A stretch of DNA of 64,000 nucleotides, taken from sequence record PP391266.1; one strand, written 5' to 3'. Every line of letters begins with the position of its first letter. Position 1 is the first letter of the stretch. This DNA is from Escherichia phage PJNS034. A program made the position numbers and the translations under genes. This document shows, piece by piece, positions 48,052 to 64,000 of the stretch. The notes under the pieces are model-generated. The model had not been told where the DNA came from and made no database searches. It worked only from the letters and a program-made list of their open reading frames with translations.

Positions 48052-48052
48052 A

Positions 48053-49453: not shown

Positions 49454-49463
49454 GGATGTAACA

Positions 49464-49913
49464 ATGTCTCAAGTTCTGAATGATGTAAACCGCAGCTTTG
49501 GTTATGAGTTCTACGAAGAATCAAAAGCTCTGTCTGGTGTTCAAGGCTATCTGGCTGACCAGCCTAAGTTTCGTGTGTTCCTCAAGCTGCGTCGTCGCAT
49601 GATTGAAGGTGAACTGCGTCAACTGAAAGTGATGCTGAAAACTGCCTCTGGTCTGGATGCTGCCGCTATCTACAAGCTGCGCTCTGCACTGAAAGATGAT
49701 TTGCGTCGTATCGGTCAGCAACTGAAAGACCTGCGACTGCATACGCTGGGTGCTAAGAAAGCAGAAGCACAGCGTTACCTGAACGTAATGGCAATGCACG
49801 ACCAGTGTGAGAAGGTCGGTGTTGATGGTACAAAACTCCTGAATGAAGTACATGCTGAAATTCAGGCTCGTAAGGCTTTGGATAATGAGTCTCGCAAACT
49901 GGTTTCTGAATAA
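49464..49913 (+). CDS. hypothetical protein
   Basis: 149 aa from ATG with RBS AAGGATG. Confidence 0.4.
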   Translation: MSQVLNDVNRSFGYEFYEESKALSGVQGYLADQPKFRVFLKLRRRMIEGELRQLKVMLKTASGLDAAAIYKLRSALKDDLRRIGQQLKDLRLHTLGAKKAEAQRYLNVMAMHDQCEKVGVDGTKLLNEVHAEIQARKALDNESRKLVSE

Positions 49914-50102
49914 GATGGAAGCAGGGGTTGATTTGACCCCTGTTAAAAATGTAGGGCTGGTTAAGGCCAGCACCTCACACAATGGCGGCGTTAACTTATC
50001 TGAGAAAGAACGTTATCGTCGTCGTGAATTATCTGGAGGGATTGCTGAGCATCATTGCACACATCCCGGTTATCAAATCTTCCCTTCATAAGAGAGTACA
50101 AA

Positions 50103-50774: not shown

Positions 50775-50785
50775 ACGGTGATTGT

Positions 50786-51235
50786 ATGAGTGTTGCAGCA
50801 ACAGCAGCATTTCTGTGTATGACGTTAGTTATTCACGAAGAAGCACGAGGCGAGCCTATCGCTGTGAAATACGAGGTAGGCCACGTGGTGAAGAATCGGA
50901 TGGATTCACGCCAGTATCCAGATACATGCGAGGCGGTTGTACTGCAACCCAAACAGTTCTCGTGGACAAAAACAAAAGGTGTACAAGATGAGTACGATTT
51001 GCGACAACGTTATTATCGCGTCCTTGACTCGCTCGACACTCCCCAAAAGCGACTTTCGTTTGCTGCTTCTCAAAGAGCGGCAGATGAAGTGCTCAGTGGT
51101 AAGCATAAATCTCGAATCGGAGCTGCGCTCCACTTCGTTACTCGCGGTCACTCAACTCATTGGGCGTCCAAATTTAAACGCCATACTATAGCAGGTATGG
51201 ATTTCCTACTCCCAAGGAAGAAGAAAAATGCTTAA
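50786..51235 (+). CDS. cell-wall hydrolase, SleB/CwlJ-like (Hydrolase_2 family); candidate endolysin
   Basis: HEEARGEPIAVKYEVGHVVKNRM...YPDTCEAVVLQPKQFSW matches Hydrolase_2 signature. Confidence 0.55.
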   Translation: MSVAATAAFLCMTLVIHEEARGEPIAVKYEVGHVVKNRMDSRQYPDTCEAVVLQPKQFSWTKTKGVQDEYDLRQRYYRVLDSLDTPQKRLSFAASQRAADEVLSGKHKSRIGAALHFVTRGHSTHWASKFKRHTIAGMDFLLPRKKKNA

Positions 51236-51431
51236 ATGGCTGTTCCGTCAGGGAAAAGACCTGAACTCTATTCTGGCTCCGCTTCGTAAGATGAAGCTGG
51301 AACTGGAAGAACGCCTCCACAAGAATGCTGATGATATTGTGGAAGCACAAAAGACCATCACCGAAAAGACCAAAGAAAATGGTTCTATTGGTGAAGCCCT
51401 GCAAACTGACCTGTTCAAATCTATCAAGTGA
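51228..51431 (+). CDS. hypothetical small protein
   Basis: 67 aa; RBS AGGAAG. Confidence 0.35.
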   Translation: MLKWLFRQGKDLNSILAPLRKMKLELEERLHKNADDIVEAQKTITEKTKENGSIGEALQTDLFKSIK

Positions 51432-51442
51432 GACAAACGACT

Positions 51443-52360
51443 ATGATTCGCACCCCATTCGGTAACTTCTCTGGTAAGACTATCGGTATCACTGCTGGCG
51501 TGATTGTGTTCCTCTTCATCCTGCTGCTGTTGAAGCCGTTCAAAGTTATCTCTGACACCGAGGAGGGTGTGCAGAAGTCGTGGTCAGGCCAGATTTACAG
51601 TCAACCAATGACTGCTGGCTTCCACTGGATGAACCCGTTCAACAGCGTCACAACGTTCCCAATGACGTATAAGAACGTTCAACTGACAAATATCGGCGTT
51701 CCTGCTCAGGACGGTTTCAAAACCACGATGGATATCAGCGTAACTGGTAAATTTATTCCGGGCATGACCCCTGCTGTCCTGAAGTCTACCGGTAATTCTG
51801 AACAGTTTGCAGCAGTGCATATCTCTAAACGTATCACAGCTAAGCTGATTGATGCTGGTAAGAAGCACGCTGTAATCAGTCAGAACTTCTACGATGAAAG
51901 CACTCTGAACAAAGTTCGTGAAGAAATCATCGTAACGGCTAACCAAGAGCTTGAGCCTCTGGGTTGGAAAGTGACTGCGGTTGAAATCAGCAACATCGAC
52001 CTGCCGGACGTTATCAAGAACGCTATCAGCGAGTCCAAGGTTCGTGCTGAACAGGTTAAGCGTCAGAAAGAATCCTTAGCAATTGCTGCTCTGAAAGCAC
52101 AAGAGATTGAGAAAGTTGCAGAGTCTAACTCTAAAGCAACTATCCTCGATGCTGATGCTAACGAGTACAAAGCTAAGAAAGAAGCTGATGCTAAAGTGTA
52201 TGCTGCTGCTCAGGAAGCAAAAGGTAACAAAGAAGTTGCTGCCTCTGTAACTCCTGCTCTGGTTGAATACATGAATGCTCAAGCTAAGATGAAGTGGGAT
52301 GGTCAGATGCCAACAACGAATGTTGGTTCTAACACTCCTGTCATCATGAGCATGAAGTAA
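51443..52360 (+). CDS. SPFH/band-7 (HflK/HflC-like) membrane protein
   Basis: N-terminal TM, SPFH core ...VTAVEISNIDLPDVIKNAISE..., C-terminal Ala/Lys coiled-coil. Confidence 0.5.
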   Translation: MIRTPFGNFSGKTIGITAGVIVFLFILLLLKPFKVISDTEEGVQKSWSGQIYSQPMTAGFHWMNPFNSVTTFPMTYKNVQLTNIGVPAQDGFKTTMDISVTGKFIPGMTPAVLKSTGNSEQFAAVHISKRITAKLIDAGKKHAVISQNFYDESTLNKVREEIIVTANQELEPLGWKVTAVEISNIDLPDVIKNAISESKVRAEQVKRQKESLAIAALKAQEIEKVAESNSKATILDADANEYKAKKEADAKVYAAAQEAKGNKEVAASVTPALVEYMNAQAKMKWDGQMPTTNVGSNTPVIMSMK

Positions 52361-52368
52361 TATACTCA

Positions 52369-52393
52369 AGCCCATCTATATGGTGGGCTTTAT
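52369..52393 (+). terminator. terminator/attenuator hairpin in conserved cassette
   Basis: stop-TATACTCAAG, AGCCCATC-TATAT-GGTGGGCT, TTTATGAAT. Confidence 0.45.
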
Positions 52394-52730
52394 GAATGTT
52401 ACTTAAACGAGGAACTAAAAGATGTTTGAATTTATCGGTGATTGTATTGCAACAACACTCAAGGCTGGATTGGGTGTGGTATTCATTGTGCTTATCTGGG
52501 TTGGCTTCCAGATGGCATGGAACTGGACGCTTGACCGTATTCGCTGGGGATTCAAATGAAAATTGAGTTCACTGGAATGAAAGGTGGTCAGCATTGCTTC
52601 AAGAAAGGGGCATTGACTTACCGCTTTAGCGAGGACGAACTCGCACAAATCGTTGGCTATGCTGTACGTATGGCAAAGGCTAACAACAACAAAACCCTGA
52701 AACAAACTAACTCCAAAAAGGACAAATGAA

Positions 52731-54128
52731 ATGCCAATCGTAACTATCGTAACTAACCGTAATAACTCTGAAACTAAGCGTGTTGAAGCTCAGTCAGGCG
52801 GTTGCTTCGGCTTTATGGCATCAACCTCTTTCTTCCGTGACCATCGCCGCGATGTTGAGTACGTTGGTTATCATATGGAGTCATCCAATCAGGCTAAGCA
52901 TTGTAGCGAAGTCTTTGATGGTAAGAATAAGTTATTCCCGTATCACAAATTCATGACCAACAATGAGTTCCATGCTATGTTCGGTGAGAACTTTGTGGAT
53001 ACTCGCCACGGTACTGTTAGTCACCACGGTTATGTGGTTGTTGAAATGCAGCCAGAAGGTTTTGAAGGTGTTGGTATTCCACAGGACATGTTCATCTCTG
53101 GTCTGTTCACTGCTCGTCAGTTGAGCTATGGCCTGTATCCGAACATGCGTGACACCATTAAGAAAGGTGTTCACCCAATGATGGCTTACGTTATCAGTGA
53201 GCTGATTCAGTGGGAAGATACAAGCACTGCTCTTGCTGCACAGCTTCGCTGGAAACGTCAGCGTGTTAGTTCTTCCAACATCGACAGCACAGCGTTCGGT
53301 AAGAAGAACCTGATTAACATGTTCAACTGCCTGAAAGGTAAGAAGCATGTGCCTTACTTCGGTCACGAAGGTGGCATCATTCAGCGTGGTGGTTACAAGC
53401 GTGACCATAACTTCAACACCTCTGCTGATAATCGTCCGGGTATTTATCAGACAATCACGGCGAACATGAACACTTCATCTGCACCGATTGAAGCTGATGA
53501 ACCAATCATCAACCCGTTCCACTTCTCTCCAGCTTACCTCGGTCATGTACTGAATGAACTGCTGGGTTGTGAAGTATTTGATATGTCGAAGATGCTTGAC
53601 CGTCAGGGTATGAAAGTTAACCCAAAATCTTCGGTGTACAAGTTCTACCAGATGCGTGATGTGAAGTTCCGTAAGTCATATCGAAAAGGTGATATGGTTG
53701 AAGTTCGTGCTGATATGTTCGGTGCTGACCAGTACATCAACCGTCACAACACTCCGCTGAGCAATCTGGTTTCTTATCGTCATGGTGAGAACAACACCAC
53801 TAACCGTGTTGGTTTCGTACCGGTTAAGACTCATGTTGAGAAGGTCAGCGTGAAGAACGGTGTGGAAAGCGTTAAGCTGGAAAACGGTTGCTGGGTATCT
53901 CCACGTTACATCAAAACTGCTGGTACTCATGCGGTTGAAGGTGTGAAGATTCAGGCAGGTACTGACACTCCGGTAAATGCACTGTATACAGTTCGTAATT
54001 CAAAAGAAGTGTATGCTGCACGTACCTTTGACTTGTTCGAAGCATCTGTTCGACTGATTCAGGTTACTGGTAACAGTATCGGTCAAGAGATTATCAAGCG
54101 TCCACGTGACCTGATTCCAGCGCTCTAA
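52731..54128 (+). CDS. hypothetical protein (first gene of amidoligase module)
   Basis: 465 aa; no motif recognised. Confidence 0.45.
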   Translation: MPIVTIVTNRNNSETKRVEAQSGGCFGFMASTSFFRDHRRDVEYVGYHMESSNQAKHCSEVFDGKNKLFPYHKFMTNNEFHAMFGENFVDTRHGTVSHHGYVVVEMQPEGFEGVGIPQDMFISGLFTARQLSYGLYPNMRDTIKKGVHPMMAYVISELIQWEDTSTALAAQLRWKRQRVSSSNIDSTAFGKKNLINMFNCLKGKKHVPYFGHEGGIIQRGGYKRDHNFNTSADNRPGIYQTITANMNTSSAPIEADEPIINPFHFSPAYLGHVLNELLGCEVFDMSKMLDRQGMKVNPKSSVYKFYQMRDVKFRKSYRKGDMVEVRADMFGADQYINRHNTPLSNLVSYRHGENNTTNRVGFVPVKTHVEKVSVKNGVESVKLENGCWVSPRYIKTAGTHAVEGVKIQAGTDTPVNALYTVRNSKEVYAARTFDLFEASVRLIQVTGNSIGQEIIKRPRDLIPAL

Positions 54129-54282
54129 TGGGTATTAATAAGACCATGACTACAGCGTTCTTTATCCTCGCTGTAGCATCGCCAATACTTGCCTGTTTCA
54201 ATACAACAGCAGCAGCATTTAGTGCTGGCATGGCTGTCTTCGCAATGCTTTGTTATGTTGTAGCGAACGGTTGATATACTCA

Positions 54283-54312
54283 AGGTCATTCACAAAGTGA
54301 GTGGCCTTTATG
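54283..54312 (+). terminator. terminator/attenuator hairpin in conserved cassette
   Basis: stop-TATACTCAAG, GGTCATTCAC-AAA-GTGAGTGGCC, TTTATGAAT. Confidence 0.45.
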
Positions 54313-54360
54313 AATATCATCTGCCAATAACGGCAACTTAAACTGAACGAGGAAACTACT

Positions 54361-55170
54361 ATGACGATTCGCCTGATTACTCTTGGTGCTGACCCTGAAA
54401 CTATTGTTGCTCGCAACGGTGTTCCAACTCACGCTATTGGTCTTATCGGCGGTACTAAGGAAGAACCACGTAAGATTATCCGTGGTGGTCGTGAAGTTGG
54501 TGCGGTGCAGGAAGATAATGTCCTGTATGAGTTCAACATCATGCCACACGATACTCGTCAGGGATTCATTGACAACATTCAGCAGATGTTGGAAGTGGGT
54601 CGTGAGATTCTGGGTGATGGTTACGAAATCACTAATAAGACTTCTCACATCTTCTCTGATGAAGACATGGCTCATTTCCCTGACTCAGCGTTTATCTTCG
54701 GTTGTGAACCGGATTTCTTCGCTGGTAATGGTGAGATGAATCCGAAGCCTGCTGCACCGTGGCCGGGTCTGCGTACCGCAGGTGGTCATGTTCACTTCGG
54801 GTTCGATGAGCGTGTAGTTCGTGATGATGAGAATGTTCGTTCTCTGATTCAACTGTGCGATATGTATATGGCGTTGCCGTCAATGCTTCTGGACACTGAC
54901 GACCTGCGTAAAGAACTGTATGGTAAGGCCGGTGCATTCCGTCCGAAAGCATATGGTGCTGAATATCGTACACTGTCAGGTTTCTGGATTCATAATCCTG
55001 AAAATACTGGCTTCGTGTTTGACCAAGCGCAGAAAGCGTATGATGCGTTGGCAACTGGTCTGGGTCGTGAGATGTTGGCACGTTTCCCATACGAACTGGT
55101 TGTCGATATCATCAACAGCAATGACCGTGGACGTGCTGAACGTGCCCTGAAAGTTATGCAGGTTGCATAA
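54361..55170 (+). CDS. amidoligase-like (GCS2/carboxylate-amine ligase-like) protein, divergent paralog
   Basis: 269 aa; GGHVHFGFD (H-x-H) and GAEYRTLSGFW (E-x-R) as in GCS2-type ligases; N-terminal E-x-E replaced by D-P-E. Confidence 0.4.
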   Translation: MTIRLITLGADPETIVARNGVPTHAIGLIGGTKEEPRKIIRGGREVGAVQEDNVLYEFNIMPHDTRQGFIDNIQQMLEVGREILGDGYEITNKTSHIFSDEDMAHFPDSAFIFGCEPDFFAGNGEMNPKPAAPWPGLRTAGGHVHFGFDERVVRDDENVRSLIQLCDMYMALPSMLLDTDDLRKELYGKAGAFRPKAYGAEYRTLSGFWIHNPENTGFVFDQAQKAYDALATGLGREMLARFPYELVVDIINSNDRGRAERALKVMQVA

Positions 55171-55352
55171 TGGAAGAAGGTCTGCTGATTAGCTGGGTTG
55201 AATCTCCAGCGAACCGTAAGACCAAGACTCATACCCTCTTCTTCGAAAGCCTGGACGAGGGTTATGAGTTCATGGCCTCTAAAAGTTGTGTAATTCAAGT
55301 ACAACGCATTCCACTGGTGAGAAAGAATGGCGAAACTGGTAACGGTAAATAA
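55170..55352 (+). CDS. hypothetical small protein
   Basis: 60 aa, ATG overlapping upstream stop. Confidence 0.3.
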   Translation: MEEGLLISWVESPANRKTKTHTLFFESLDEGYEFMASKSCVIQVQRIPLVRKNGETGNGK

Positions 55353-55518
55353 CGCAGATAAAACTGTAACTCGTCGTGTCTTTATGGACAACGAAGAGGG
55401 TATCATGTGGGCAGTTGACCAAGCCCGCACAGCACTGTCAGTCGTGACTGATGATGTGGAAGTGGTCGAGGCTTCCAGCCGTAAAGGTTGGGAAGGTCAT
55501 ATCGCATGTGATTGCTAA
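55327..55518 (+). CDS. hypothetical small protein
   Basis: 63 aa ORF. Confidence 0.3.
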   Translation: MAKLVTVNNADKTVTRRVFMDNEEGIMWAVDQARTALSVVTDDVEVVEASSRKGWEGHIACDC

Positions 55519-55542
55519 TTTAAACTGAACGAGAGAACTAAA

Positions 55543-56151
55543 ATGTCAATCAATATGTCAAGTGGTGATTTACGTCTGTATTGGGGTGGGTGTTATGCAC
55601 CTGTTGCATGGGATGCAGCAGATAGTGGCGTAGCAACACTGGTAATTCACGACGTTCGTGTGATAAATCCAATGTCACGTGACTACACCGAAGCACGAGT
55701 TCAAGGTGAACTATTCTTCATTCGTAATGGAGAAGAGGCTCGTGGTAATTTTGAAGGTCGTATGTCTGACCTCCTCGGTGATGGGTTCACCACTCCTCAA
55801 CGCAATATCGGTTATATCCGTGTTCACGGTCAACCGTATTGGATTACCTTCAAACGTCGTCGTACAAATCGTAAAGGCATCACCAATGACCGTCTGGCTG
55901 TGTATGTAGCTGGGCATCGTGGTGAAGCAGGTTTGAACTTCGGTAGTGATGTGTTGTGTCGTCTGTATGCAACCTTTGATGGTCGTATCTCTGATGATTT
56001 CTGTATTCATCAGAACATGATTCATTATAAAGGTGTGGTTGTCGGACGTTATGAGCGTCACAATCGTATTGTATTAGCTGAACGTTTTGCGTATCTTAGC
56101 TGGTCGCTGGAACGTATCGGTGGTTACGACGTAACGGTGGAGGTTGAGTAA
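55543..56151 (+). CDS. hypothetical protein
   Basis: 202 aa; RBS GAGAGAA. Confidence 0.4.
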   Translation: MSINMSSGDLRLYWGGCYAPVAWDAADSGVATLVIHDVRVINPMSRDYTEARVQGELFFIRNGEEARGNFEGRMSDLLGDGFTTPQRNIGYIRVHGQPYWITFKRRRTNRKGITNDRLAVYVAGHRGEAGLNFGSDVLCRLYATFDGRISDDFCIHQNMIHYKGVVVGRYERHNRIVLAERFAYLSWSLERIGGYDVTVEVE

Positions 56152-56975
56152 TGATTATTGCTGACATTTTAGGGCATGGTCGTGGGTCGGATGTTGTTGA
56201 TACGCATCCGTTGATTGTTGGTCGAGGCCGTGTAGGACTCGAATTAGAACTGGAGAATATGCCAAATGCTCGACAAGCTGCTGGTTGGACAGTTACTGGT
56301 GACGGTTCTCTGCGTAATAGCGGCGTGGAATATGTACTCCGTGGTGCTCAGGGAGGTATGGAGTTATTTAATTCGATACTTTCTCTGGAAGAAGCACTCA
56401 TGGCACATCAATGTGATGCTAACCTTCGCTGCTCTACTCACGTTCACCTTGATATACGTCGGCTCACTGTGGCTCAACTCAAGCGTTTACTTCTGGCTTA
56501 TACAGTCTTTGAGCCATTAATCTTTGAGTTGTCCGGTGCGCATCGTCGTACTAACAACTTCTGTCCGTCGTTTAGTTTCGCTCAGCAACAAATTCGTAAG
56601 CTGAGTAACAACTGGCATCATGATGGTGAACGATTCCTTGCTCGTATTGTGGAAGGTCGTGACCGCCAATCCAGTGATAAGTATTCAGCACTGAATCTGG
56701 TTCCAATCTTCACTCAGGGTTCTGTAGAGTTCCGTGGTGCAGAAGCGAAGCCAAGTGCAGGTAAGATGATTCGTCTGGCTAACCGTATTCTAAGTCTGTA
56801 TGACTTAGCGGTTAACTCTGATATGAATCAGTCTGATGCTGAGTTCATTAACTCACTGGCGAACCTTGATGTTCAACAGGCATTGATGGGTACGATTCCT
56901 CGTGACTTCGAACTCAGCGAAGAACTGGTGAATGAAGGACGTGTCTTAGCGTTCGATATTATCTCTCTGGGGTGA
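56151..56975 (+). CDS. amidoligase (GCS2-like carboxylate-amine ligase)
   Basis: 274 aa; VGLELELE (E-x-E), CSTHVHLD (H-x-H), GSVEFRGAE (E-x-R): the three signature blocks of gamma-glutamyl-cysteine-synthetase-2-like amidoligases. Confidence 0.55.
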   Translation: MIIADILGHGRGSDVVDTHPLIVGRGRVGLELELENMPNARQAAGWTVTGDGSLRNSGVEYVLRGAQGGMELFNSILSLEEALMAHQCDANLRCSTHVHLDIRRLTVAQLKRLLLAYTVFEPLIFELSGAHRRTNNFCPSFSFAQQQIRKLSNNWHHDGERFLARIVEGRDRQSSDKYSALNLVPIFTQGSVEFRGAEAKPSAGKMIRLANRILSLYDLAVNSDMNQSDAEFINSLANLDVQQALMGTIPRDFELSEELVNEGRVLAFDIISLG

Positions 56976-56976
56976 C

Positions 56977-57192
56977 ATGAGCTGGAACGAACGAGAGTAT
57001 CGTAAACCAAAGTTGGGCACTGTATGTGTCCACTTCGAACCTTCGTATAAGTCAACCTTTGGAAGTACGAAGAAGTTCCCTAACGCATCGTTCTACTTGA
57101 GTACGAACGGTGTAATCATCATCCGTGATATGGATGGTGACAACATCTGTGCATACCCTGAAGGTGTGTGGCTGAATGTTGAAATGAAGTGA
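56977..57192 (+). CDS. hypothetical small protein
   Basis: 71 aa ORF. Confidence 0.3.
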   Translation: MSWNEREYRKPKLGTVCVHFEPSYKSTFGSTKKFPNASFYLSTNGVIIIRDMDGDNICAYPEGVWLNVEMK

Positions 57193-57202
57193 TTAACTCA
57201 AG

Positions 57203-57224
57203 CCCTTCTTCGGGAGGGTTTTAT
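57203..57224 (+). terminator. terminator/attenuator hairpin in conserved cassette (UUCG loop)
   Basis: stop-TTAACTCAAG, CCCTTC-TTCG-GGAGGG, TTTTATGG. Confidence 0.5.
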
Positions 57225-57278
57225 GGTAATCATTACCACAAACTATTGAAACTAACTATTGAACTTGAGGAAAGTATT

Positions 57279-58871
57279 ATGTGCGGAATCGTTGGAATTA
57301 TGCGTGGCGTTATGACTGAAGGTATGGTGGACATGTTTGAACAACTGCTGTATGCAGATGTGTTCCGTGGCCCGCACTCCACTGGCGTCTATCGTGTTAA
57401 TAAAGATGGTCAATCAGGGTTGTATAAGGATGCAGTACCTGCGTCTTTATATCTTGGCTCGAAAGGCTGGGATGATTTACGTGGGAATCTGAATGGAACT
57501 GCTGGTCATCAGGCACTGTCTCAAGTTTATGTTGGTCATAACCGTTGGGCAACTGTAGGTGCAGTTAACGCTGTGAACTCACATCCATTCAAGTGCGGTA
57601 ACATCACGATGGTACACAATGGTACTGTTGCGAAGTGGCGTTTGAATGACCACCTGAAGTATGACGTTGATAGTCATGCGGTGTGTGCGATGTTGGATTC
57701 ACATGGTCTGGCTGAAACTCTGAAAGTTCTGGATGGTAAGTTTACTCTGGTGTGGCATGACGCATCTGATAACACCATGAACTTTATCCGTAATGCAGAA
57801 CGTCCTCTGCACATGGTTGAGTTCACTGATGGTGGTTGGGCGTTTGCATCAGAAGGTGAGATGTTAACGTGGATTAATGGTCGTCGTAAGACCCCGTTTG
57901 GTATTAAACGTGCTTTCGAACTGCCAGTTGGCTTCCATCATAAATTCCAGTTATCCGCGAGCAAAGTAGAGCTTGCGGAGGTCGTTAAGTACGAACTCCC
58001 AAAGTTCACCAGCTACGCCAGCAACAGCACGTATTATCCAAACCGAAGCTCAGTCGCAAGCAGCAGCGCAAGCTCAACAAACTCAGAAAGCGCAACCGCT
58101 AGACGTGTGCGTCTGATGAAAGAGTGGGGCATTGACGTTGGAGACCGCAAAGATGTAGAGAACATGATTGTGTCTCTGGATAACATCGCGTTCACAGCGT
58201 ACTCAACCAATGCAGCATCAGGTCGTATTGATGCAGACGCATGGGGTTACGATGAAGCTGTTGATGCCTGTGATGCTGGTCATATGGAAATTGACTGTAA
58301 GCGTGGTGGTAAAACTGAAGATGTTCAGGTAACAGTTTACGGTGTTGATACTGTTAAGTGGAAAGACAACTACTCTCAGGGCGACCGTCTGTACGGTAAG
58401 ATTGACAGTGTGTTTGAATCCACTGAGCATGGCAAGACTCGTCTTCGTATCACTTTGAAACCACTGACTCTGTGTACTGAGTTGGCTGATGGCGTTGAAG
58501 CCTTTAATGAGAAAGTGTTCCCGCTCCTCATTAAGAAAGAGGCCGAAAAGGTTGATGCCGACAAAAGTAAATCAGATGTTGCAGGAAGCACTGGAAGCGC
58601 AGGAACTGCAACTGGTCAGGGAACTCAGTTATCGGTTGTAGTGGATAACACTGCAAAAAAGCCGGAAGGTACGGACTCATCAAGCGGCTCGCCGAACTTG
58701 TTCAACATGTCCGCAATTCCAATGAGTCTTAAAGACTTGCGTGAAGACAAGCTGAGTTGTGCTTGGTGCGGAAATGCAATCCACGAACATAACTACGAAA
58801 TGTCTGATATGTTCTTTAAATCTCACATCTGCCCAGATTGTGCCAAGGAGTTACCGGGTTATGGCGACTGA
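57279..58871 (+). CDS. class-II glutamine amidotransferase (Ntn hydrolase) domain protein with C-terminal extension and Zn-ribbon
   Basis: N-terminal Met-Cys-Gly-Ile-Val-Gly (catalytic Cys after Met removal), Ser-rich linker, C-terminal CAWCG...CPDC. Confidence 0.55.
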   Translation: MCGIVGIMRGVMTEGMVDMFEQLLYADVFRGPHSTGVYRVNKDGQSGLYKDAVPASLYLGSKGWDDLRGNLNGTAGHQALSQVYVGHNRWATVGAVNAVNSHPFKCGNITMVHNGTVAKWRLNDHLKYDVDSHAVCAMLDSHGLAETLKVLDGKFTLVWHDASDNTMNFIRNAERPLHMVEFTDGGWAFASEGEMLTWINGRRKTPFGIKRAFELPVGFHHKFQLSASKVELAEVVKYELPKFTSYASNSTYYPNRSSVASSSASSTNSESATARRVRLMKEWGIDVGDRKDVENMIVSLDNIAFTAYSTNAASGRIDADAWGYDEAVDACDAGHMEIDCKRGGKTEDVQVTVYGVDTVKWKDNYSQGDRLYGKIDSVFESTEHGKTRLRITLKPLTLCTELADGVEAFNEKVFPLLIKKEAEKVDADKSKSDVAGSTGSAGTATGQGTQLSVVVDNTAKKPEGTDSSSGSPNLFNMSAIPMSLKDLREDKLSCAWCGNAIHEHNYEMSDMFFKSHICPDCAKELPGYGD

Positions 58872-59154
58872 TAAAATTGTAATTCGTATGCCGAAAGACG
58901 ACATTGAATGTGAGCGGAAATATCCGTTCACTTACTTCATGAATGCAGCGCTGCGTGGTATGCAGCGTCGCTACTCTGAACAAGCGTCGGCAAAGTTTGG
59001 TAGTGAAGTTGAGATTCTATTCCCAACTGCATTATCAAAAATGATTCATGACCACATGGTCACTCTGTATCAACAGGAAGGATTCGAACTCGCTGAAGAA
59101 GATTTCGAAGACTCCGAACAATACCGCAAATATCTGAAACTAATTAAGGGCTAA
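58861..59154 (+). CDS. hypothetical protein
   Basis: 97 aa from ATG overlapping upstream stop. Confidence 0.35.
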   Translation: MATDKIVIRMPKDDIECERKYPFTYFMNAALRGMQRRYSEQASAKFGSEVEILFPTALSKMIHDHMVTLYQQEGFELAEEDFEDSEQYRKYLKLIKG

Positions 59155-59159
59155 AACAA

Positions 59160-60653
59160 ATGCTGCGTATCTTCAACTACAACAACGGTTCTCAAGGTCT
59201 GGGTGCTCTGCGTGAACATGTAGAGCCATTGATTCGTGAGATGAATACTCATCGTGGTTTCCGTAACATTCGTCCGGTTATGGGTAGCGAGAATGGTTCT
59301 GCTCGTCTGTTTCAGGCGACTAACCGCTTCATTATGAACTGGGGTTCTTCGCAACCCCTGAACACTGATGAAAGCAACTTCGTTCTCAACAAACCGGAAG
59401 CTGTTGGTTTAGCAACTCATAAACTCCGCTTCTTCCAACATGTTCACCAGTGGAACCAAGAGAAGATTGCTCAGGGTGTGAATGGCCTGACTGTTCCGAT
59501 TCCTGAGTGGACAACTTCTCGTGATGAAGCTCAGACTTGGGCAGGGCATGACCATCTGGTTTATGCCCGTCAACGTCTGCAAGGTCATAGCGGTGAAGGT
59601 ATCGAAGTATACGGTATCAATCAGGTTGTTGAACGTGCTCCACTGTACACCAAAGGCATCATCGGTGCTCGTCGTGAGTATCGTGTTCATGTCATTGCTG
59701 GTCAGGTGGCACTGGTTCAGTTGAAGAAACGCCGCAATGGTGGTGAGGCTGTGGGCAATGGTAATGACCATGTTCGTAACCTCGGCTCTGGTTGGGTGTA
59801 TGCAGTAAGTGATGCTCGTCCATCACCAGTCGTATTGAGTGCAGCACAGAATGCAGTTCGTGCTCTGGGTCTGGACTTTGGTGCGGTAGACATTATCGCT
59901 AAAGGTCGTAAAGGTCAGGAGCGTGAGTGCTGGGTGTTGGAAGTTAACACTGCACCGGGTCAGCGTGGTGATACTACTGTGACGCTGTATGCTCGTGCTG
60001 TTGCATCGGCATATGCAATCTGGATGAATCGTGATAGCGTTGACGTCCGTGATTTAGGAGGTGTCAAAGCTGCATGGGAAACACTTCCTTGGCTGAACGA
60101 TGAAACCTTCCTTGCTCTGATGCGTGATGAAGGTGCAGATGGTTCGGTACTTCTGCGTTCTCAGCGTGAAACTCAGGCAGCAGAGGCAGAAATGCCTAAC
60201 ACTGACGATGATGTGGCGGCAGATGAAAACTTTGCCCTTCCTGCTGATGAACTGACACCTGCTCGTGCAACCTCTGGTGCTCATGTAGTTCACACTGGTA
60301 CTCGTTGGGTTGATGTAGAAGCAGCACCTCAAGTTCGTGCTGAGCCTGTACGTCGTCGTGACGGTGAGCCAATGCCGTTCAATGGTAATCCATTCGATGC
60401 ACGTATTCGTCGTGAACCTGCACCACGTCCTGCACCTGAACCGGTTGTAATGCCAGAACGTCGTGTCATGTTGTCTCGTCTGGGACAGAATGACCCACAG
60501 AACGAACAGTTCGTGGTATTCACATGGAACGGTCGTCGTGAAGTCGGTGTAGTCAATACTCGTCTGGGTGTTGTTTACATGGCTGGTAGCGAAGTTCAAC
60601 TTCCACTGGCTCAGGTTGATTTGATTGCGGTAGTTGATACCGAAATTCGTTAA
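59160..60653 (+). CDS. ATP-grasp family ligase (RimK-like) with C-terminal extension
   Basis: 497 aa; GEGIEVY, EYRVHVIAG, LGLDFGAVDII, WVLEVNTAPG (E-x-N) ATP-grasp blocks; about 200-aa extension. Confidence 0.5.
   Translation: MLRIFNYNNGSQGLGALREHVEPLIREMNTHRGFRNIRPVMGSENGSARLFQATNRFIMNWGSSQPLNTDESNFVLNKPEAVGLATHKLRFFQHVHQWNQEKIAQGVNGLTVPIPEWTTSRDEAQTWAGHDHLVYARQRLQGHSGEGIEVYGINQVVERAPLYTKGIIGARREYRVHVIAGQVALVQLKKRRNGGEAVGNGNDHVRNLGSGWVYAVSDARPSPVVLSAAQNAVRALGLDFGAVDIIAKGRKGQERECWVLEVNTAPGQRGDTTVTLYARAVASAYAIWMNRDSVDVRDLGGVKAAWETLPWLNDETFLALMRDEGADGSVLLRSQRETQAAEAEMPNTDDDVAADENFALPADELTPARATSGAHVVHTGTRWVDVEAAPQVRAEPVRRRDGEPMPFNGNPFDARIRREPAPRPAPEPVVMPERRVMLSRLGQNDPQNEQFVVFTWNGRREVGVVNTRLGVVYMAGSEVQLPLAQVDLIAVVDTEIR
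59973..59984 (+). repeat. 12-mer ACTACTGTGACG, copy 8
   Basis: Exact, codons 272-275 of ATP-grasp gene. Confidence 0.9.
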
Positions 60654-60682
60654 TTGCTTTAGGGTATTCTTCGGAGTACCCT

Positions 60683-60904
60683 ATGTCGATTGAACCGAAC
60701 GAGGAATATATGAAAGTATGGGTAGTTATGTTCCAAGAGTATGACCTAGCCGAAGTGCTGGAAATCTACTCGAAGGAAGAAGATGCTATAGCACATCGTC
60801 AGGCTGAAATTGATAAGAGCTTGTCATACGCTAAGAAGTGGAATGTCAAACCACACCCTGCGCTCGAACAGTTTTATACAATTCACGAAAAAGAGGTAAA
60901 GTAA
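60683..60904 (+). CDS. hypothetical small protein
   Basis: 73 aa ORF. Confidence 0.3.
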   Translation: MSIEPNEEYMKVWVVMFQEYDLAEVLEIYSKEEDAIAHRQAEIDKSLSYAKKWNVKPHPALEQFYTIHEKEVK

Positions 60905-61311
60905 TGAGCAATTTAGTCGCTGTATATGGTTCCCTTCTGTCTGGTCTGCATAACCACGGTGTTATGGAACGTGCAAAGGGTAAGTTGATTGGTGCTGGTG
61001 AATCGGTGCAGAACATCAACATGTATTCTCTGGGTGGTTTCCCTTCCATCTCTCTGGAACACTCCAGCCACGGTAATACAATTCGTGTTGAAGTATATGA
61101 AGTACCGGATGAAGGTATGCGTCCTCTGAATGCACTGGAAGGTTATCGTGGTGAAGATGGCCCGAACTTCTACAACCGCACTCCAATCAAAATTAAGATG
61201 GACAACGGTGATATGCTGGAAGCGTTCATCTATCACATCGACGAAACTCAATCCCATCCGGTTATTGATGGTGACTGGCGTAAATATCTGGAACAGCGAG
61301 GTCGTGCATAG
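60904..61311 (+). CDS. gamma-glutamyl cyclotransferase (AIG2/GGCT-like)
   Basis: 135 aa from ATG 60904; N-terminal VAVYGSLLSG (YGSL motif) and size typical of AIG2-like cyclotransferases. Confidence 0.5.
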   Translation: MSNLVAVYGSLLSGLHNHGVMERAKGKLIGAGESVQNINMYSLGGFPSISLEHSSHGNTIRVEVYEVPDEGMRPLNALEGYRGEDGPNFYNRTPIKIKMDNGDMLEAFIYHIDETQSHPVIDGDWRKYLEQRGRA

Positions 61312-61523
61312 TGGAATATGATGCAATCCTTGAAGACCCAAGACTCTCACCAATTAGTAAGAGCAAGAAGGTCGCCGTAGGTTATATCTACGAAGATAAG
61401 AAAGGCCGCTGGCCTGATGGAACTTTCATTCGTACCTCTCTGATTGAAAAGGAAATCAAAGAAGGGAATGATGTTTACATCAAAACAATGAACACTGTGT
61501 ATAAGGTGCGTGAGAATGCCTAA
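61311..61523 (+). CDS. hypothetical protein
   Basis: 70 aa ORF. Confidence 0.3.
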   Translation: MEYDAILEDPRLSPISKSKKVAVGYIYEDKKGRWPDGTFIRTSLIEKEIKEGNDVYIKTMNTVYKVRENA

Positions 61524-62570: not shown

Positions 62571-62737
62571 GGAGCCATCATGCTACCATTATCTTGCCTC
62601 CTAATTGGAGGCTTGATTGGCTTCTTTATCAGCGGTATGATTGTCTCCTCTGTCTACAAGCGTCAGATTCGTGATGGCTATGTGGAAATCAAAGGTGTGG
62701 TCTACCGTACCTATAAAGCAAGCAAGTGAGGTAAACA

Positions 62738-64000
62738 TTGTCCCAAGAGTATCAAGGTGGTAAACGATTAACGCACGACGGCCCATGTCCAACATGTCGT
62801 TCTCATGGACGTGACAGAACTGGCAACCACTTACAGTTCTGGGAGAATGATAAAGGCGAGCATTGGGCTTTCTGTAACCGATGCGGTCACTACGAAGACG
62901 ATGGAAACAAACTCGGCTCGTATGAAAAGAAAGAACGTCGTGAGTTAAGCGATGAAGAAGTAGCGGAGGTGTTGTCAGAGATTGCCGAACTTCCGTATCA
63001 AGCGTTGGGTAGTCGTGGTATCACATTAGCAGTTGCCGAACGTTATGGTGTTCGTGTTGGATTAAGTCCACAGGACGGACAAACTCAAGTCTCTCACTTC
63101 TATCCGAAGATGAAGGGCAAGGATATCACTGGTTACAAAGTACGTCAGTTGAATCCGAAGTTCTTTTATCATCAAGGTCGTGGTGGTGGATGTGACTTGT
63201 TTGGTATGCAGCAAGCGTTGTTGAAGGATGTGTTTAAACATTCGTTGTATATCTTCGAAGATGAGTTGTCGGCAATGTCTGGTTTTCAGGTATTGAAACA
63301 ATTCGCAAAAGAGGGTTACAAGAACTACTCACCAGCGGTTGTTTCATTGCCAGATGGAACGAAATCAGCAGCACGAGTGTGTGGTCAGAACCGTGAGTTC
63401 ATCCAGAGTTTCAAAGAAGTTGTTGTCTGTATGGATAACGACAAAGCTGGTGATGATGCGGTTGAAGTGATTCGTTCACTTTATCCTGACAAAGTAAAAG
63501 TGGTACGACTTCCGCTGAAAGATGCGAACGATATGCTTATGGCAGGTCGTGAAATGGAGTTGTATCAGCACTTACGATTCAATGCCAAGACTGAGACGCC
63601 AGACGGTGCAGTATCCATTATGGATTGCATTGAAGATGCGTTGAAGAAACCGGAATGGGGTTTATCATTCCCGTGGCAGGGTCTTACGAACTTAACTTAT
63701 GGCATTCAGTACGGTGAGATTATCGCTGTTGGTGGTGGTGTAGGTTTGGGTAAGACCTTGATTGGTCATGAGTTGTGTGCTCACTTGATTAATGTCGAGA
63801 AACAACGAATCGGCATGTTCATGCTGGAGGAAACTGTTGGCAATACCATCAAGAACATTTCTGGTAAGGTTGCTAATATTCCTTTCCATCGCCCAGATGT
63901 TGAGTATGACCCTCAAACCCTTCGTGACGTAGCAATGTCGTTTGGCGACAATGTAGCGTTGTGGCAGAACAAAGGTCAGAACTCATGGGAGAACATTAAG
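62738..64000 (+). CDS. DNA primase-helicase (T7 gp4-like), 5' part; continues beyond window
   Basis: TTG start after GAGGT RBS; Zn-ribbon CPTCRS...CNRCGH, TOPRIM-like VVVCMDNDKAGDDA, helicase Walker A GGGVGLGKT; open to window end. Confidence 0.8.
   Translation, partial: MSQEYQGGKRLTHDGPCPTCRSHGRDRTGNHLQFWENDKGEHWAFCNRCGHYEDDGNKLGSYEKKERRELSDEEVAEVLSEIAELPYQALGSRGITLAVAERYGVRVGLSPQDGQTQVSHFYPKMKGKDITGYKVRQLNPKFFYHQGRGGGCDLFGMQQALLKDVFKHSLYIFEDELSAMSGFQVLKQFAKEGYKNYSPAVVSLPDGTKSAARVCGQNREFIQSFKEVVVCMDNDKAGDDAVEVIRSLYPDKVKVVRLPLKDANDMLMAGREMELYQHLRFNAKTETPDGAVSIMDCIEDALKKPEWGLSFPWQGLTNLTYGIQYGEIIAVGGGVGLGKTLIGHELCAHLINVEKQRIGMFMLEETVGNTIKNISGKVANIPFHRPDVEYDPQTLRDVAMSFGDNVALWQNKGQNSWENIK

What the first reader, a model, noticed from the sequence alone, without database searches (positions are those of the whole stretch)
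52731..61311. Phage-encoded amidoligase / glutamine amidotransferase / ATP-grasp / gamma-glutamyl cyclotransferase module with no obvious substrate
A contiguous plus-strand block encodes two GCS2-like carboxylate-amine ligases (54361-55170 divergent; 56151-56975 with E-x-E, H-x-H and E-x-R blocks), a class-II glutamine amidotransferase with Cys directly after the initiator Met and a C-terminal Zn-ribbon (57279-58871), an ATP-grasp ligase with a long extension (59160-60653) and an AIG2-type gamma-glutamyl cyclotransferase (60904-61311). Unknown proteins of 465 aa (52731-54128) and 202 aa (55543-56151) sit in the same block. Together this is a toolkit for ATP-dependent amide or peptide bond formation followed by gamma-glutamyl-amine cyclisation. 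Similar neighbourhoods have been predicted computationally, but I know of no phage version with an assigned substrate. Possible roles are modification of a virion or host protein, of peptidoglycan precursors, of a nucleotide or DNA base, or synthesis of a small peptide-like metabolite. The genes are separated by a repeated stop-ACTCAAG-hairpin-TTTATG cassette, suggesting co-regulation.
Basis: partly seen in the sequence, partly recalled or inferred. Interest (0 to 1): 0.85.

Follow-up and report, generated by a model that had tools for sequence, protein, structure and literature searches.

The report
Conserved phage amide-ligase gene cassette
This is one phage's copy of a gene cassette (three ATP-dependent amide-bond ligases, a glutamine amidotransferase and helper proteins) that hundreds of tailed phages carry next to their DNA-replication genes; the cassette is already known, but nobody has found what it acts on.

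Summary

The window is Escherichia phage PJNS034. The block is not unusual. It is the phiEco32/LUZ24-type amidoligase cassette, in the same gene order as LUZ24 gp14-gp23 and Kuravirus SU10 gp090-gp077, and it lies upstream of primase/helicase. Relatives occur in 312 phage records and 311 IMG/VR contigs. In 100,044 bacterial and archaeal genomes they appear only on phage-like contigs.

The near-universal core is the three ligases, the amidotransferase and a ~200-aa protein predicted as SH3-like barrels. GGACT is accessory (33 of 86 loci). The 465-aa protein belongs to a rare, fast-evolving family with an invariant N-terminal Cys-aromatic motif that travels with the cassette.

No paper I could search assigns a substrate. 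Extreme restriction-site avoidance (zero GATC in 64 kb) argues against DNA hypermodification. I favour, weakly, a cytoplasmic complex that builds a Glu/Gln-derived amide adduct on a protein or peptide.

Verdict: a new member of a known kind, attached to a real open question.

The parts
50786..51235 (+). Context: SleB-like cell-wall hydrolase (Hydrolase_2). A recurrent but not universal neighbour of the cassette.
   Evidence: Matches the TIGR02869 SleB N-terminal part at 3.9e-8. The same cluster occurs in 6 of 86 loci. It also lies beside the cassette in L097.
51428..52360 (+). Context: membrane-anchored SPFH/Band_7 (HflC-like) protein.
   Evidence: Weak HflC match, 3.6e-5. The cluster occurs in 4 of 86 loci. 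A Band_7 gene lies beside the cassette in L097.
52361..52397 (+). Cassette copy 1: TATACTCAAG box, 7-bp GC-rich hairpin, TTTATGAAT.
52422..52559 (+). 45-aa hydrophobic small ORF (possible membrane peptide). Its end overlaps the next start codon.
   Evidence: Read from the sequence only.
52556..52729 (+). 57-aa ORF of unknown function.
52731..54128 (+). 465-aa 'CFG-family' protein. It has an N-terminal beta-hairpin, an invariant Cys25-Phe26, FTxR(N) and GYxRD motifs, and C-terminal SH3/KOW-like barrels.
54146..54274 (+). 42-aa hydrophobic small ORF.
54275..54316 (+). Cassette copy 2: TGATATACTCAAG, hairpin, CTTTATGAAT. The box reads as an extended -10 (TGnTATACT).
   Evidence: Conserved in TacPo2 at L001:3246 with a shorter, still fully paired stem.
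54361..55170 (+). COOH-NH2 ligase type 2: a phiEco32-like carboxylate-amine ligase of the glutamine-synthetase/GCS2 type.
   Evidence: PF14395 at 4.6e-10 and phrog_3815 at 1.7e-85. Invariant D11-P-E13, Q50, D52, E57, C115, D118, R138, H143, H145, E201 and R203.
55170..55518 (+). Two small overlapping ORFs (60 aa and 63 aa). No family, specific to this phage.
55543..56151 (+). 202-aa core protein (phrog_4877), predicted as tandem SH3-like beta-barrels. Probably a non-catalytic adaptor. It is always encoded between the two GS-like ligase genes.
56151..56975 (+). Amidoligase_2: a GS/GCS2-like carboxylate-amine ligase.
   Evidence: PF12224 at 5.7e-12, phrog_7469 at 1.2e-60. ELELE, THVH and VEFR motifs. 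Present in 82 of 86 loci.
56977..57192 (+). 71-aa ORF, shared only with TacPo2.
57193..57228 (+). Cassette copy 3: TGATTAACTCAAG, hairpin with a UUCG loop, TTTTATGGTAAT.
57279..58871 (+). Stand-alone class-II (Ntn) glutamine amidotransferase. The glutaminase domain covers residues 1 to about 210. A variable, low-complexity, beta-rich middle follows, and a C-terminal zinc ribbon ends the protein. No synthase domain.
   Evidence: GATase_6 at 3.3e-18, phrog_4736 at 2.9e-94. In 83 homologues R30, R89, T92, N114, G115, D131, and the RN..RP and SE motifs are conserved, while the C-terminal half is poorly conserved. MCGIVG start and CxxC...CxxC.
58864..59154 (+). DUF7195 small protein (RKYPF motif). 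Conserved between the amidotransferase and ATP-grasp genes in the enterobacterial/Pseudomonas branch.
   Evidence: PF23825 at 1.5e-6. Clusters 20 and 42. Also present in L100.
59160..60653 (+). RimK-like ATP-grasp amino-acid ligase (residues 1 to about 290), followed by a roughly 130-aa acidic, Pro-rich linker and a roughly 60-aa C-terminal beta domain.
   Evidence: phrog_2599 at 2.3e-75. Profile hits RimK at 4e-8, alpha-L-glutamate ligase at 1e-7 and cyanophycin synthetase at 3e-7. GHSG, EYRVH and LEVN motifs. SU10 has a comparable tail.
60683..60904 (+). 73-aa ORF of unknown function.
60904..61311 (+). AIG2/GGACT-type gamma-glutamyl(amine) cyclotransferase. An accessory member of the cassette.
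   Evidence: PF06094 at 2.7e-19, phrog_2520 at 2.1e-37. YGSL and LEGY motifs. Present in 33 of 86 loci.
62735..64000 (+). Context: primase/helicase, which runs off the window end. It marks the replication module that follows the cassette in other lineages too.
   Evidence: phrog_239 at 2.6e-118. Primase/helicase lies within 10 kb in 66 of 86 loci.

Best explanation
The block is phage PJNS034's copy of the phiEco32/LUZ24-type amidoligase cassette. This module is seen here only on phage or phage-like contigs and is expressed from the early/middle strand just upstream of the replication genes.

Shown by sequence: three different ATP-dependent carboxylate-amine ligases (two of the glutamine-synthetase/GCS2 type, one RimK-like ATP-grasp); a stand-alone Ntn glutaminase domain with no synthase domain of its own; and a gamma-glutamyl-amine cyclotransferase. 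All have intact catalytic motifs.

Inferred: the proteins form a cytoplasmic complex. The ~200-aa SH3-like protein, encoded between the two GS-like ligases with overlapping stop/start codons in this phage and in LUZ24, acts as the scaffold. Each ligase activates a carboxylate as an acyl-phosphate. One acyl-phosphate is captured by ammonia (or an amine) released from glutamine (or another gamma-glutamyl amide) by the amidotransferase acting in trans. The other two are captured by amino groups, with glutamate the most likely building block given the RimK and GCS2 relatives. The cyclotransferase, or in other lineages a class-I GATase/C26 hydrolase, removes or recycles a gamma-glutamyl group as 5-oxoproline or glutamate.

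Committed guess: the acceptor is a protein or peptide rather than a free metabolite or DNA. The fast-evolving 'CFG' protein, with its invariant N-terminal Cys, serves as the specificity, carrier or transfer subunit.

My probabilities for the acceptor: protein/peptide about 0.3, peptidoglycan or envelope precursor about 0.2-0.25, free small molecule about 0.2-0.25, nucleic acid under 0.1.
For: Identity and chemistry: family and motif results. Gene order matches LUZ24 and SU10 and, with variations, PA11 and a Rhizobium phage.

Core versus accessory: in 86 loci, GAT-II is present in 82, Amidoligase_2 in 82, ATP-grasp in 80 and the COOH-NH2 ligase in essentially all. The ~200-aa protein is present in 66 or more, C26 in 47 and GGCT in 33.

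Phage restriction: 311 IMG/VR contigs carry the ligase. Only 11 loci turned up in 100,044 species genomes, all with the phage gene arrangement on short contigs. No PADLOC defence model matches.

Amidotransferase acting in trans: its C-terminal half is variable and holds no conserved synthase domain.

Macromolecular acceptor:
- The nearest solved relatives of the ATP-grasp are RimK (a ligase acting on a protein C-terminus) and cyanophycin synthetase.
- SH3/Tudor/KOW-like barrels are predicted in the 202-aa protein and in the C-terminus of the 465-aa protein.
- Long disordered linkers with small terminal beta or zinc domains occur on the ATP-grasp and the amidotransferase, and these are multiplied in 7-11-like and Kuravirus-like homologues.
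- The CFG family keeps only a Cys-aromatic motif and a few Arg, Asp and Tyr residues, yet stays linked to the cassette in at least five lineages.

Translational coupling: overlapping stop/start codons.
Against: - The ~200-aa protein has no conserved Lys, Glu or C-terminus that could be a tag site.
- The AF2 model of the CFG protein is poor (pLDDT 52.8), so the role of its Cys is a guess.
- GS/GCS2-type ligases, GGCT and C26 enzymes usually act on small gamma-glutamyl compounds. That fits a metabolite pathway as well as it fits a protein one.
- The only published prediction is cell-wall/receptor modification (as quoted).
- SH3-like barrels also bind peptidoglycan peptides or nucleic acids.
- C26 and GGCT are neither universal nor mutually exclusive: 8 loci have both and 14 have neither. 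So 'removal of a gamma-glutamyl group' is not an obligatory step.
Confidence: 0.33

Rival explanations
1. Cell-envelope modification. The enzymes act on cytoplasmic peptidoglycan precursors (UDP-MurNAc-peptide or lipid II), amidating the free carboxylates of D-iso-Glu or meso-DAP, or adding an acidic amino acid to the DAP amino group. This would change wall cross-linking or sensitivity to lysins and exclude superinfecting phages.
For: This is the only published prediction: Iyer et al. 2009, as quoted in PMC10580990 and PMC11318856. From my own knowledge there is chemical precedent: the ATP-grasp D-aspartate ligase Asl with the GAT-II amidotransferase AsnH, the MurT/GatD pair, and LtsA/AsnB1. 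Named hosts of ATP-grasp-bearing phages are all Proteobacteria. A SleB-like hydrolase, an SPFH membrane protein and small hydrophobic ORFs flank the cassette here, in TacPo2, in 7-11-like phages and in a distant relative.
Against: No component resembles Mur ligases or carries a membrane anchor or signal peptide (read from the sequences). The hydrolase and SPFH neighbours occur in only 6 and 4 of 86 loci. The benefit to a strictly lytic phage with a short cycle is unclear. The ATP-grasp is closer to RimK (4e-8) than to D-Ala-D-Ala ligase (3e-4).
Confidence: 0.22
2. Synthesis or remodelling of a free small molecule. Candidates are a gamma-glutamyl amine or polyamine conjugate, a glutathione-like peptide, or a peptide-like inhibitor. 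Gamma-glutamylation would serve as a transient activating or protecting group that GGCT or C26 later removes.
For: From my own knowledge, GS/GCS2-type ligases (PuuA/PauA, GshA-type, theanine and gamma-glutamylmethylamide synthetases), C26 hydrolases (PuuD) and GGCT (BtrG in butirosin biosynthesis, which works with the ATP-grasp BtrJ) act on small gamma-glutamyl compounds. GAT-II domains can also use gamma-glutamyl amides other than glutamine (EgtC; N-methylglutamate synthase). The amidotransferase shows a weak EgtC match (6e-6). Both accessory enzymes of the cassette cleave gamma-glutamyl amides.
Against: A soluble metabolite pathway does not need the non-catalytic SH3-like barrels, zinc ribbons and long linkers. 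The families have no chromosomal bacterial counterparts, so no host pathway is being supplemented.
Confidence: 0.22
3. DNA or nucleotide hypermodification. The ligases would decorate a base in phage DNA with an amino-acid-derived side chain to evade restriction.
For: The cassette lies next to the primase/helicase and DNA polymerase genes in most loci. Kuravirus phages, which carry it, are reported as remarkably resistant to RM systems although no modification pathway is known (PMC11990801). SH3/KOW-like barrels and zinc ribbons can bind nucleic acids. PJNS034 also encodes MazG-like and nucleoside-2-deoxyribosyltransferase-like proteins.
Against: The window has zero GATC against about 250 expected, 5 CCWGG against about 93, and 404 six-base palindromes against about 1025. 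Dozens of type II sites are absent. Cassette-bearing loci in general avoid palindromes, with a median observed/expected of 0.64. Such avoidance is expected only if the DNA is exposed to restriction, and by itself it could account for resistance to type II enzymes, though EcoRV, EcoKI and EcoP1 sites are not depleted. No hydroxymethylase, thymidylate-synthase homologue, kinase or glycosylase-type transferase was found among the ORFs scanned.
Confidence: 0.07
4. A host-derived auxiliary metabolic gene set that boosts nitrogen, glutamate or glutathione metabolism of the infected cell.
For: Proposed for 'Phage-ZRK32' in PMC10945688. Annotation pipelines label the genes as AMGs (PHROG categories).
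Against: The COOH-NH2 ligase family is essentially absent from cellular genomes. None of the proteins reaches the cut-off of any NCBIfam metabolic family; GlmS scores 44 bits against a cut-off of 381. The fixed gene order with phage-only partners is not that of a borrowed host pathway.
Confidence: 0.03

Closest known systems
phiEco32/LUZ24-type phage amidoligase neighbourhood (Iyer, Abhiman, Burroughs and Aravind 2009, Mol Biosyst; Pfam PF14395 'Phage phiEco32-like COOH.NH2 ligase-type 2')
   Same: The same families occur in the same order: unknown Cys-motif protein(s), COOH-NH2 ligase, ~200-aa protein, Amidoligase_2, GAT-II, small DUF7195-type protein, ATP-grasp, GGACT, then primase/helicase. 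Function is unknown in all of them.
   Different: PJNS034 and TacPo2 have one 465-476-aa Cys-motif protein where LUZ24 and SU10 have two paralogues of 318-399 aa. The Amidoligase_2 is short (274 aa against 367-567 aa). The ATP-grasp carries a ~200-aa tail. Extra small ORFs and three promoter/hairpin cassettes are present. SleB-like and SPFH genes lie just upstream.
RimK / RimABK (ribosomal protein S6 poly-alpha-L-glutamate ligase)
   Same: ATP-grasp fold with GHSG, E-x-R-x-H and E-x-N motifs. RimK is the best PDB match of the phage profile (4e-8). It works on a protein C-terminus with glutamate.
   Different: No NCBIfam RimK model is matched at all. There are no RimA or RimB partners. The phage enzyme has a linker plus a small beta domain and is embedded with two GS-like ligases and an amidotransferase.
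Gamma-glutamyl 'protect and release' pathways: butirosin BtrJ (ATP-grasp) with BtrG (GGCT); Puu/Pau gamma-glutamyl-polyamine pathway (GS-like ligase with C26 hydrolase); ergothioneine EgtA (GCS2 ligase) with EgtC (GAT-II-like hydrolase). All recalled from my own knowledge.
   Same: They combine a carboxylate-amine ligase that makes a gamma-glutamyl amide with an enzyme that later removes the gamma-glutamyl group. The cassette pairs its ligases with GGACT or a C26/class-I GATase.
   Different: Those pathways are cellular, act on small molecules or carrier-protein-bound intermediates, and have known substrates. None contains the PF14395 ligase, the SH3-like protein or the Cys-motif protein.
Peptidoglycan side-chain ligation and amidation: Asl (ATP-grasp) with AsnH (GAT-II); MurT/GatD. 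Recalled from my own knowledge.
   Same: An ATP-dependent ligase paired with a glutamine amidotransferase acts on a peptide carboxylate in the cytoplasm.
   Different: There is no detectable sequence relationship beyond the superfamily level. The phage cassette has three ligases and no Mur-ligase domain.

Membership tests
phiEco32/LUZ24-type phage amidoligase cassette | PF14395 COOH-NH2 ligase type 2 with conserved DPE, QEDN..E, GCEPD, RTAGGHVH and EYR.LS motifs | tested here: met
   PF14395 at 4.6e-10, above its cut-off; phrog_3815 at 1.7e-85. The invariant columns are shared with LUZ24, SU10, PA11 and TacPo2.
phiEco32/LUZ24-type phage amidoligase cassette | Co-occurrence in one same-strand block of Amidoligase_2, a stand-alone GAT-II and a RimK-like ATP-grasp | tested here: met
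   The same three genes are present in 80-82 of 86 loci.
phiEco32/LUZ24-type phage amidoligase cassette | A ~200-aa protein (phrog_4877 type) encoded between the two GS-like ligase genes | tested here: met
   phrog_4877 at 9.4e-16. It aligns with LUZ24 gp17 and SU10 gp087. Found in 66 loci.
phiEco32/LUZ24-type phage amidoligase cassette | Position upstream of the primase/helicase and DNA polymerase genes on the early/middle strand | tested here: met
   Primase/helicase starts at 62735. DNA polymerase is at 2476-4161. The order matches.
Class-II (Ntn) glutamine amidotransferase | Catalytic Cys directly after the initiator Met, plus the Arg, Asn-Gly oxyanion and Asp glutamine-binding residues | tested here: met
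   MCGIVG, HNG, and conserved R30, R89, T92, N114, G115 and D131. GATase_6 at 3.3e-18.
Class-II (Ntn) glutamine amidotransferase | A fused synthase/acceptor domain that receives the ammonia | tested here: not met
   The C-terminal half is variable, matches no family and ends in a zinc ribbon. It must work with a partner in trans, or act as a hydrolase.
Class-II (Ntn) glutamine amidotransferase | Glutaminase activity | not testable with these tools
   Needs an enzyme assay.
ATP-grasp amino-acid ligase, RimK-like clade | ATP-grasp motifs (P-loop-like GHSG, E-x-R-x-H, Mg-binding E-x-N) and profile similarity to solved members | tested here: met
   RimK 4e-8, alpha-L-Glu ligase 1e-7, cyanophycin synthetase 3e-7.
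RimK proper (S6-glutamate ligase equivalog) | Reaches the curated family score, and has the S6 substrate and Rim partners | tested here: not met
   No RimK model appears in the NCBIfam hits. Only short cyanophycin-synthetase and MptN fragments score, far below cut-off. The PHROG name 'S6 glutaminyl transferase' is an annotation label only.
GGCT / GGACT (AIG2-like) | YGSL substrate-binding motif and the catalytic Glu | tested here: met
   PF06094 at 2.7e-19, full length. YGSL at residue 8 and LEGY at residue 79.
GS/GCS2-like carboxylate-amine ligase (Amidoligase_2) | E-x-E, H-x-H and E-x-R metal- and phosphate-binding blocks | tested here: met
   ELELE, THVH and VEFR. PF12224 at 5.7e-12. There is no solved homologue by sequence.
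Known phage DNA hypermodification clusters (5-hmdU/5-hmdC-derived, deazaguanine) | A hydroxymethylase or thymidylate-synthase homologue, a 5-HMUDK kinase, aGPT-Pplase or DpdA-type enzymes, and no need for restriction-site avoidance | tested here: not met
   None was found among about 40 ORFs scanned. Palindrome and GATC avoidance is extreme. Not every small ORF was scanned.
Known anti-phage defence systems (PADLOC) | A match to any PADLOC protein model | tested here: not met
   0 hits for all seven cassette proteins.

The most novel reading that the evidence does not exclude
The cassette is a phage-specific conjugation system comparable in logic to pupylation or ubiquitin-like tagging. The ligases would build a short Glu/Gln-derived amide chain. 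The fast-evolving Cys-motif ('CFG') protein would use its invariant N-terminal Cys as a thioester carrier or as a Hint/Ntn-like processing site (the motif SGG|CF resembles the hedgehog autoprocessing site) to deliver the chain to a host or phage target. That would be a new kind of protein modification used for host takeover across hundreds of podoviruses.
Probability: 0.12. Interest if true: 0.85.

Novelty: new member of a known kind. Interest (0 to 1): 0.42.

Why it matters
The cassette takes up 7-9 kb, more than 10% of the genome, in several hundred lytic podoviruses. These include the model phage LUZ24, therapeutic Pseudomonas phages, the BASEL Kuravirus isolates and abundant marine phages. 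In the genome collections searched here it appears only on phage or phage-like contigs. It has stayed without a substrate since it was described computationally in 2009.

Finding its product would annotate thousands of 'hypothetical' or mislabelled genes, such as those called 'GlmS', 'S6 glutaminyl transferase' or 'AMG'. It could also reveal a new protein, cell-wall or metabolite modification used in infection.

This window adds no new system. It does offer a compact E. coli-infecting version. The survey done here narrows the question in four ways:
- It defines the five-gene core.
- It shows that GGACT is accessory.
- It shows that a Cys-motif family travels with the cassette.
- It makes DNA an unlikely target.

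Tried and rejected

2. Direct profile comparison of the 465-aa family with LUZ24 gp14/gp15 and SU10 gp089/gp090. Not significant (probability under 1%). The link rests on the shared position and the C-[FY]-G motif only.

3. GGCT and C26 as mutually exclusive, equivalent 'gamma-glutamyl removers'. Rejected as a rule: 39 loci have C26 only, 25 have GGCT only, 8 have both and 14 have neither.

4. The ~200-aa protein as a tag acceptor through a conserved C-terminal Glu. True only in the PJNS034 clade, not family-wide.

5. Internal homology among the small beta domains of the cassette proteins. No significant BLAST similarity.

6. Bacterial operon context to infer a substrate. The single genome-collection scan found only phage-like contigs.

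7. Solved structures of close homologues. None for the Amidoligase_2 or for the ATP-grasp as a single sequence. Only weak superfamily matches for the GAT-II and GGACT.

8. Literature. Iyer et al. 2009 is not in the held library. Nine searches found only genome descriptions and speculation. PJNS034 itself appears once, in a review.

9. The hairpin cassette as a general gene separator. Rejected: three copies only.

Full report
**Observation.** Profile searches reproduce each family call.
- 54361-55170 is a PF14395 'phiEco32-like COOH-NH2 ligase type 2' (4.6e-10; phrog_3815 at 1.7e-85).
- 56151-56975 is PF12224 Amidoligase_2 (5.7e-12).
- 57279-58871 is a class-II glutamine amidotransferase (GATase_6 at 3.3e-18).
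- 60904-61311 is an AIG2/GGACT cyclotransferase (2.7e-19).
- The ATP-grasp call for 59160-60653 gets no Pfam hit. It is secured by phrog_2599 (2.3e-75) and by a profile of six phage homologues whose best solved relatives are RimK (4e-8), alpha-L-glutamate ligase and cyanophycin synthetase.

The amidotransferase starts at the ATG at 57279, giving Met-Cys, behind a GAGGAAA ribosome-binding site.

The repeated CTCAAG-hairpin-TTTATG element is real: 3 copies against 0.23 expected. But only two copies lie inside the block. Most junctions are overlapping stop/start codons.

**Identity of the phage.** Two proteins of the block are 100% identical to proteins of Escherichia phage PJNS034 (65.7-kb contig). 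The nearest genome in the phage collection is Pantoea phage TacPo2 (80% nucleotide identity over 52% of the block), in which every gene is annotated 'hypothetical'. The rest of the window encodes a podovirus-type structural module, DNA polymerase, ligase, exonuclease and ten tRNAs.

**What the block is.** It is not a peculiarity of this phage.
- LUZ24 gp14-gp23 and Kuravirus SU10 gp090-gp077 carry the same families in the same order, followed by primase/helicase and DNA polymerase.
- PA11 (Zobellviridae) and a Rhizobium phage carry a rearranged version in which a class-I GATase/peptidase C26 appears and no GGACT is annotated.
- The ATP-grasp has tblastn relatives in 312 phage records. The COOH-NH2 ligase has relatives in 311 IMG/VR contigs.

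I clustered the ORFs of 86 loci. The near-universal core is GAT-II (82 loci), Amidoligase_2 (82), ATP-grasp (80), the COOH-NH2 ligase (essentially all), and the ~200-aa protein encoded between the two GS-like ligases (at least 66). Primase/helicase lies within 10 kb in 66 loci. C26 (47) and GGACT (33) are accessory. They are neither universal nor mutually exclusive: 39 loci have C26 only, 25 have GGACT only, 8 have both and 14 have neither.

A scan of one genome for each of 100,044 bacterial and archaeal species found only 11 loci. All are on short contigs of MAGs or drafts of unrelated taxa, and all have the phage arrangement. In these collections, therefore, the module appears only on phage or phage-like contigs and is not a borrowed host pathway. 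None of its proteins matches a PADLOC defence model.

**The unknown components: the 465-aa protein.** It is rare. An exhaustive HMM search of 1.84 billion representatives found 10 proteins. Its invariant residues are C25, F26, F126, R129, F189, Y222, R224 and D225. The AF2 model is poor (pLDDT 52.8), and only C-terminal SH3/KOW-like barrels are recognisable.

One finding here is new, though modest. The unannotated proteins that sit directly upstream of the ligase gene in Kuravirus, Bruynoghevirus and 7-11-like phages, and one upstream of the amidotransferase gene in a Rhizobium phage, all carry the same feature: a Cys followed by Phe or Tyr, preceded by small residues, 20-36 residues from the N-terminus after a short beta-hairpin. 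A cluster in the marine lineage has an invariant Cys-[F/Y/H] in the equivalent place. Distant family members P0015 and P0020 are again encoded a few kb upstream of the cassette, one of them in a phage with a T7-like RNA polymerase.

**Other domain features.** The amidotransferase has a fully conserved glutaminase domain, but its C-terminal half is variable and lacks any synthase domain. The ATP-grasp proteins of PJNS034 and SU10 carry acidic linkers and a small terminal beta domain. Homologues from 7-11-like and Kuravirus-like contigs multiply such beta and zinc-ribbon modules.

**Mechanism.** *Shown:* three distinct ATP-dependent carboxylate-amine ligases, a stand-alone Ntn glutaminase and a gamma-glutamyl-amine cyclotransferase, all with intact motifs, encoded as tightly coupled genes.

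*Inferred from established enzymology of these superfamilies:*
- Each ligase makes an acyl-phosphate.
- One acyl-phosphate is amidated by ammonia (or an amine) released by the amidotransferase in trans.
- The others are joined to amino groups, with glutamate the likeliest unit.
- GGACT or C26 removes a gamma-glutamyl group.

*Guessed:* the acceptor. I favour a protein or peptide (about 0.3) for four reasons: the ATP-grasp's closest solved relative is RimK; adaptor barrels, zinc ribbons and linkers are abundant; the Cys-motif partner evolves fast; and the enzyme families have no cellular counterpart.

The envelope-precursor model is the only published prediction: Iyer et al. 2009, quoted. It has good chemical precedent and some neighbourhood support. 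A SleB-like hydrolase and an SPFH protein lie beside the cassette here, in TacPo2 and in L097, and 7-11-like loci hold both within 10 kb of the ligase gene. But these neighbours occur in only 6 and 4 of 86 loci. A free-metabolite model fits the usual substrates of GS-like ligases, GGCT and C26 enzymes equally well.

DNA hypermodification is disfavoured.
- The window has no GATC at all (about 250 expected), 5 CCWGG (about 93 expected), and 404 six-base palindromes (about 1025 expected).
- Cassette-bearing loci in general avoid palindromes.
- No hydroxymethylase-type enzyme was found.

Site avoidance could also account for at least part of the unexplained RM resistance reported for Kuravirus (PMC11990801), although EcoRV, EcoKI and EcoP1 sites are not depleted here.

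The 'nitrogen-metabolism AMG' idea conflicts with the phage-restricted distribution.

**The hairpin cassette.** Three of the four copies seen (three here, one in TacPo2) read TGnT(A/T)(T/A)ACT. This is an extended -10-like box, placed just before a GC-rich hairpin and TTTATG. The TacPo2 copy has a shorter stem that still pairs fully. A promoter whose transcript begins with a stabilising 5' hairpin, or a terminator-promoter unit, are both possible. This was not tested further.

**Known or new.** The neighbourhood was described computationally in 2009, and a Pfam family is named after it. Phage genome papers list the genes routinely. I found no experimental assignment in nine literature searches, and no solved structure of a close homologue. 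PJNS034's copy is therefore a new member of a known kind, with minor variant features: a single long Cys-motif protein, a short Amidoligase_2 and an extended ATP-grasp.

**Verdict.** The open question is real and long-standing, but this window does not by itself make it more testable than LUZ24 or the BASEL Kuravirus phages already do. Interest is moderate (0.42).

Noticed in passing
window 1-64000 (whole window): Extreme restriction-site avoidance. GATC occurs 0 times against about 250 expected, and CCWGG 5 times against about 93. Six-base palindromes number 404 against about 1025 by base composition (691 by Markov). EcoRI, BamHI, PstI, KpnI, SalI, XhoI, NcoI, SphI, ScaI, PvuII and NsiI sites are all absent. 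EcoRV (23), EcoKI (8) and EcoP1 sites are not depleted. The TacPo2 and 7-11-like loci also have 0 GATC.
   Followed up: partly
window 52731-54128; L002:531-2468; L003:527-2708; L097:4112-5608; L099:10001-11095: A highly divergent protein family defined by a Cys-[Phe/Tyr] motif 20-36 residues from the N-terminus. It is linked to the amidoligase cassette in at least five phage lineages. It has no Pfam family and no usable structure model.
   Followed up: partly
window 6138-6966: A tight cluster of ten tRNA genes (Pro, Tyr, Lys, Ser, Ile, Ser, Asn, Met, Trp, Gln) inside the replication region.
   Followed up: no
window 12166-13466 and 88-623: A nucleoside 2-deoxyribosyltransferase-like gene lies next to a PnuC-like nicotinamide-riboside/NMN transporter gene. 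MazG-like pyrophosphatase and thioredoxin genes are also present. Together they could serve nucleotide-pool or NAD salvage functions.
   Followed up: no
window 48023-52360: A run of envelope-related genes lies upstream of the cassette: a membrane protein (48023-48469), two putative lipoproteins or secreted proteins with signal-like N-termini (48466-48789 and 49175-49453, the latter with LTGC), a SleB-like hydrolase (50786-51235) and an SPFH/HflC-like protein (51428-52360). The hydrolase and SPFH pair recurs beside the cassette in a distant phage contig, L097.
   Followed up: partly
window 52422-52559 and 54146-54274: Two unannotated small hydrophobic ORFs (45 aa and 42 aa) lie in the 'intergenic' gaps. 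The first follows the promoter/hairpin cassette at 52361-52397 and the second ends just before the one at 54275-54316.
   Followed up: no
window 61311-61523: A 70-aa protein just after the GGACT gene (motif DG-x-x-[IV]-x-TS...T-x-N[ST]-x-Y) is conserved in 10 loci, including Kuravirus and 7-11-like phages, although there it lies on the other side of the cassette.
   Followed up: no
L086-L096 (genome-contig hits): Phage contigs carrying the cassette are binned into MAGs or drafts labelled Peptococcaceae, Methanomethylovorans, Colwellia, Crocinitomix, Dojkabacteria and Herbiconiux. These are probably mis-binned or contaminant phage sequences.
   Followed up: partly
L099:4372-6834: A metagenomic phage with a T7-like single-subunit RNA polymerase also carries the Cys-motif protein and the amidoligase cassette. 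The module is therefore not confined to phages that depend on the host polymerase.
   Followed up: no
L001:3256-4119 (TacPo2_6): The deposited start of the TacPo2 COOH-NH2 ligase gene seems too far upstream. It runs through the conserved promoter/hairpin cassette. The ATG that aligns with PJNS034 is 18 codons downstream.
   Followed up: no
window 14022-18854 (- strand): A 1610-aa protein whose only recognisable part is a C-terminal lysozyme/baseplate-hub-like domain. It is probably an ejected internal virion protein.
   Followed up: no
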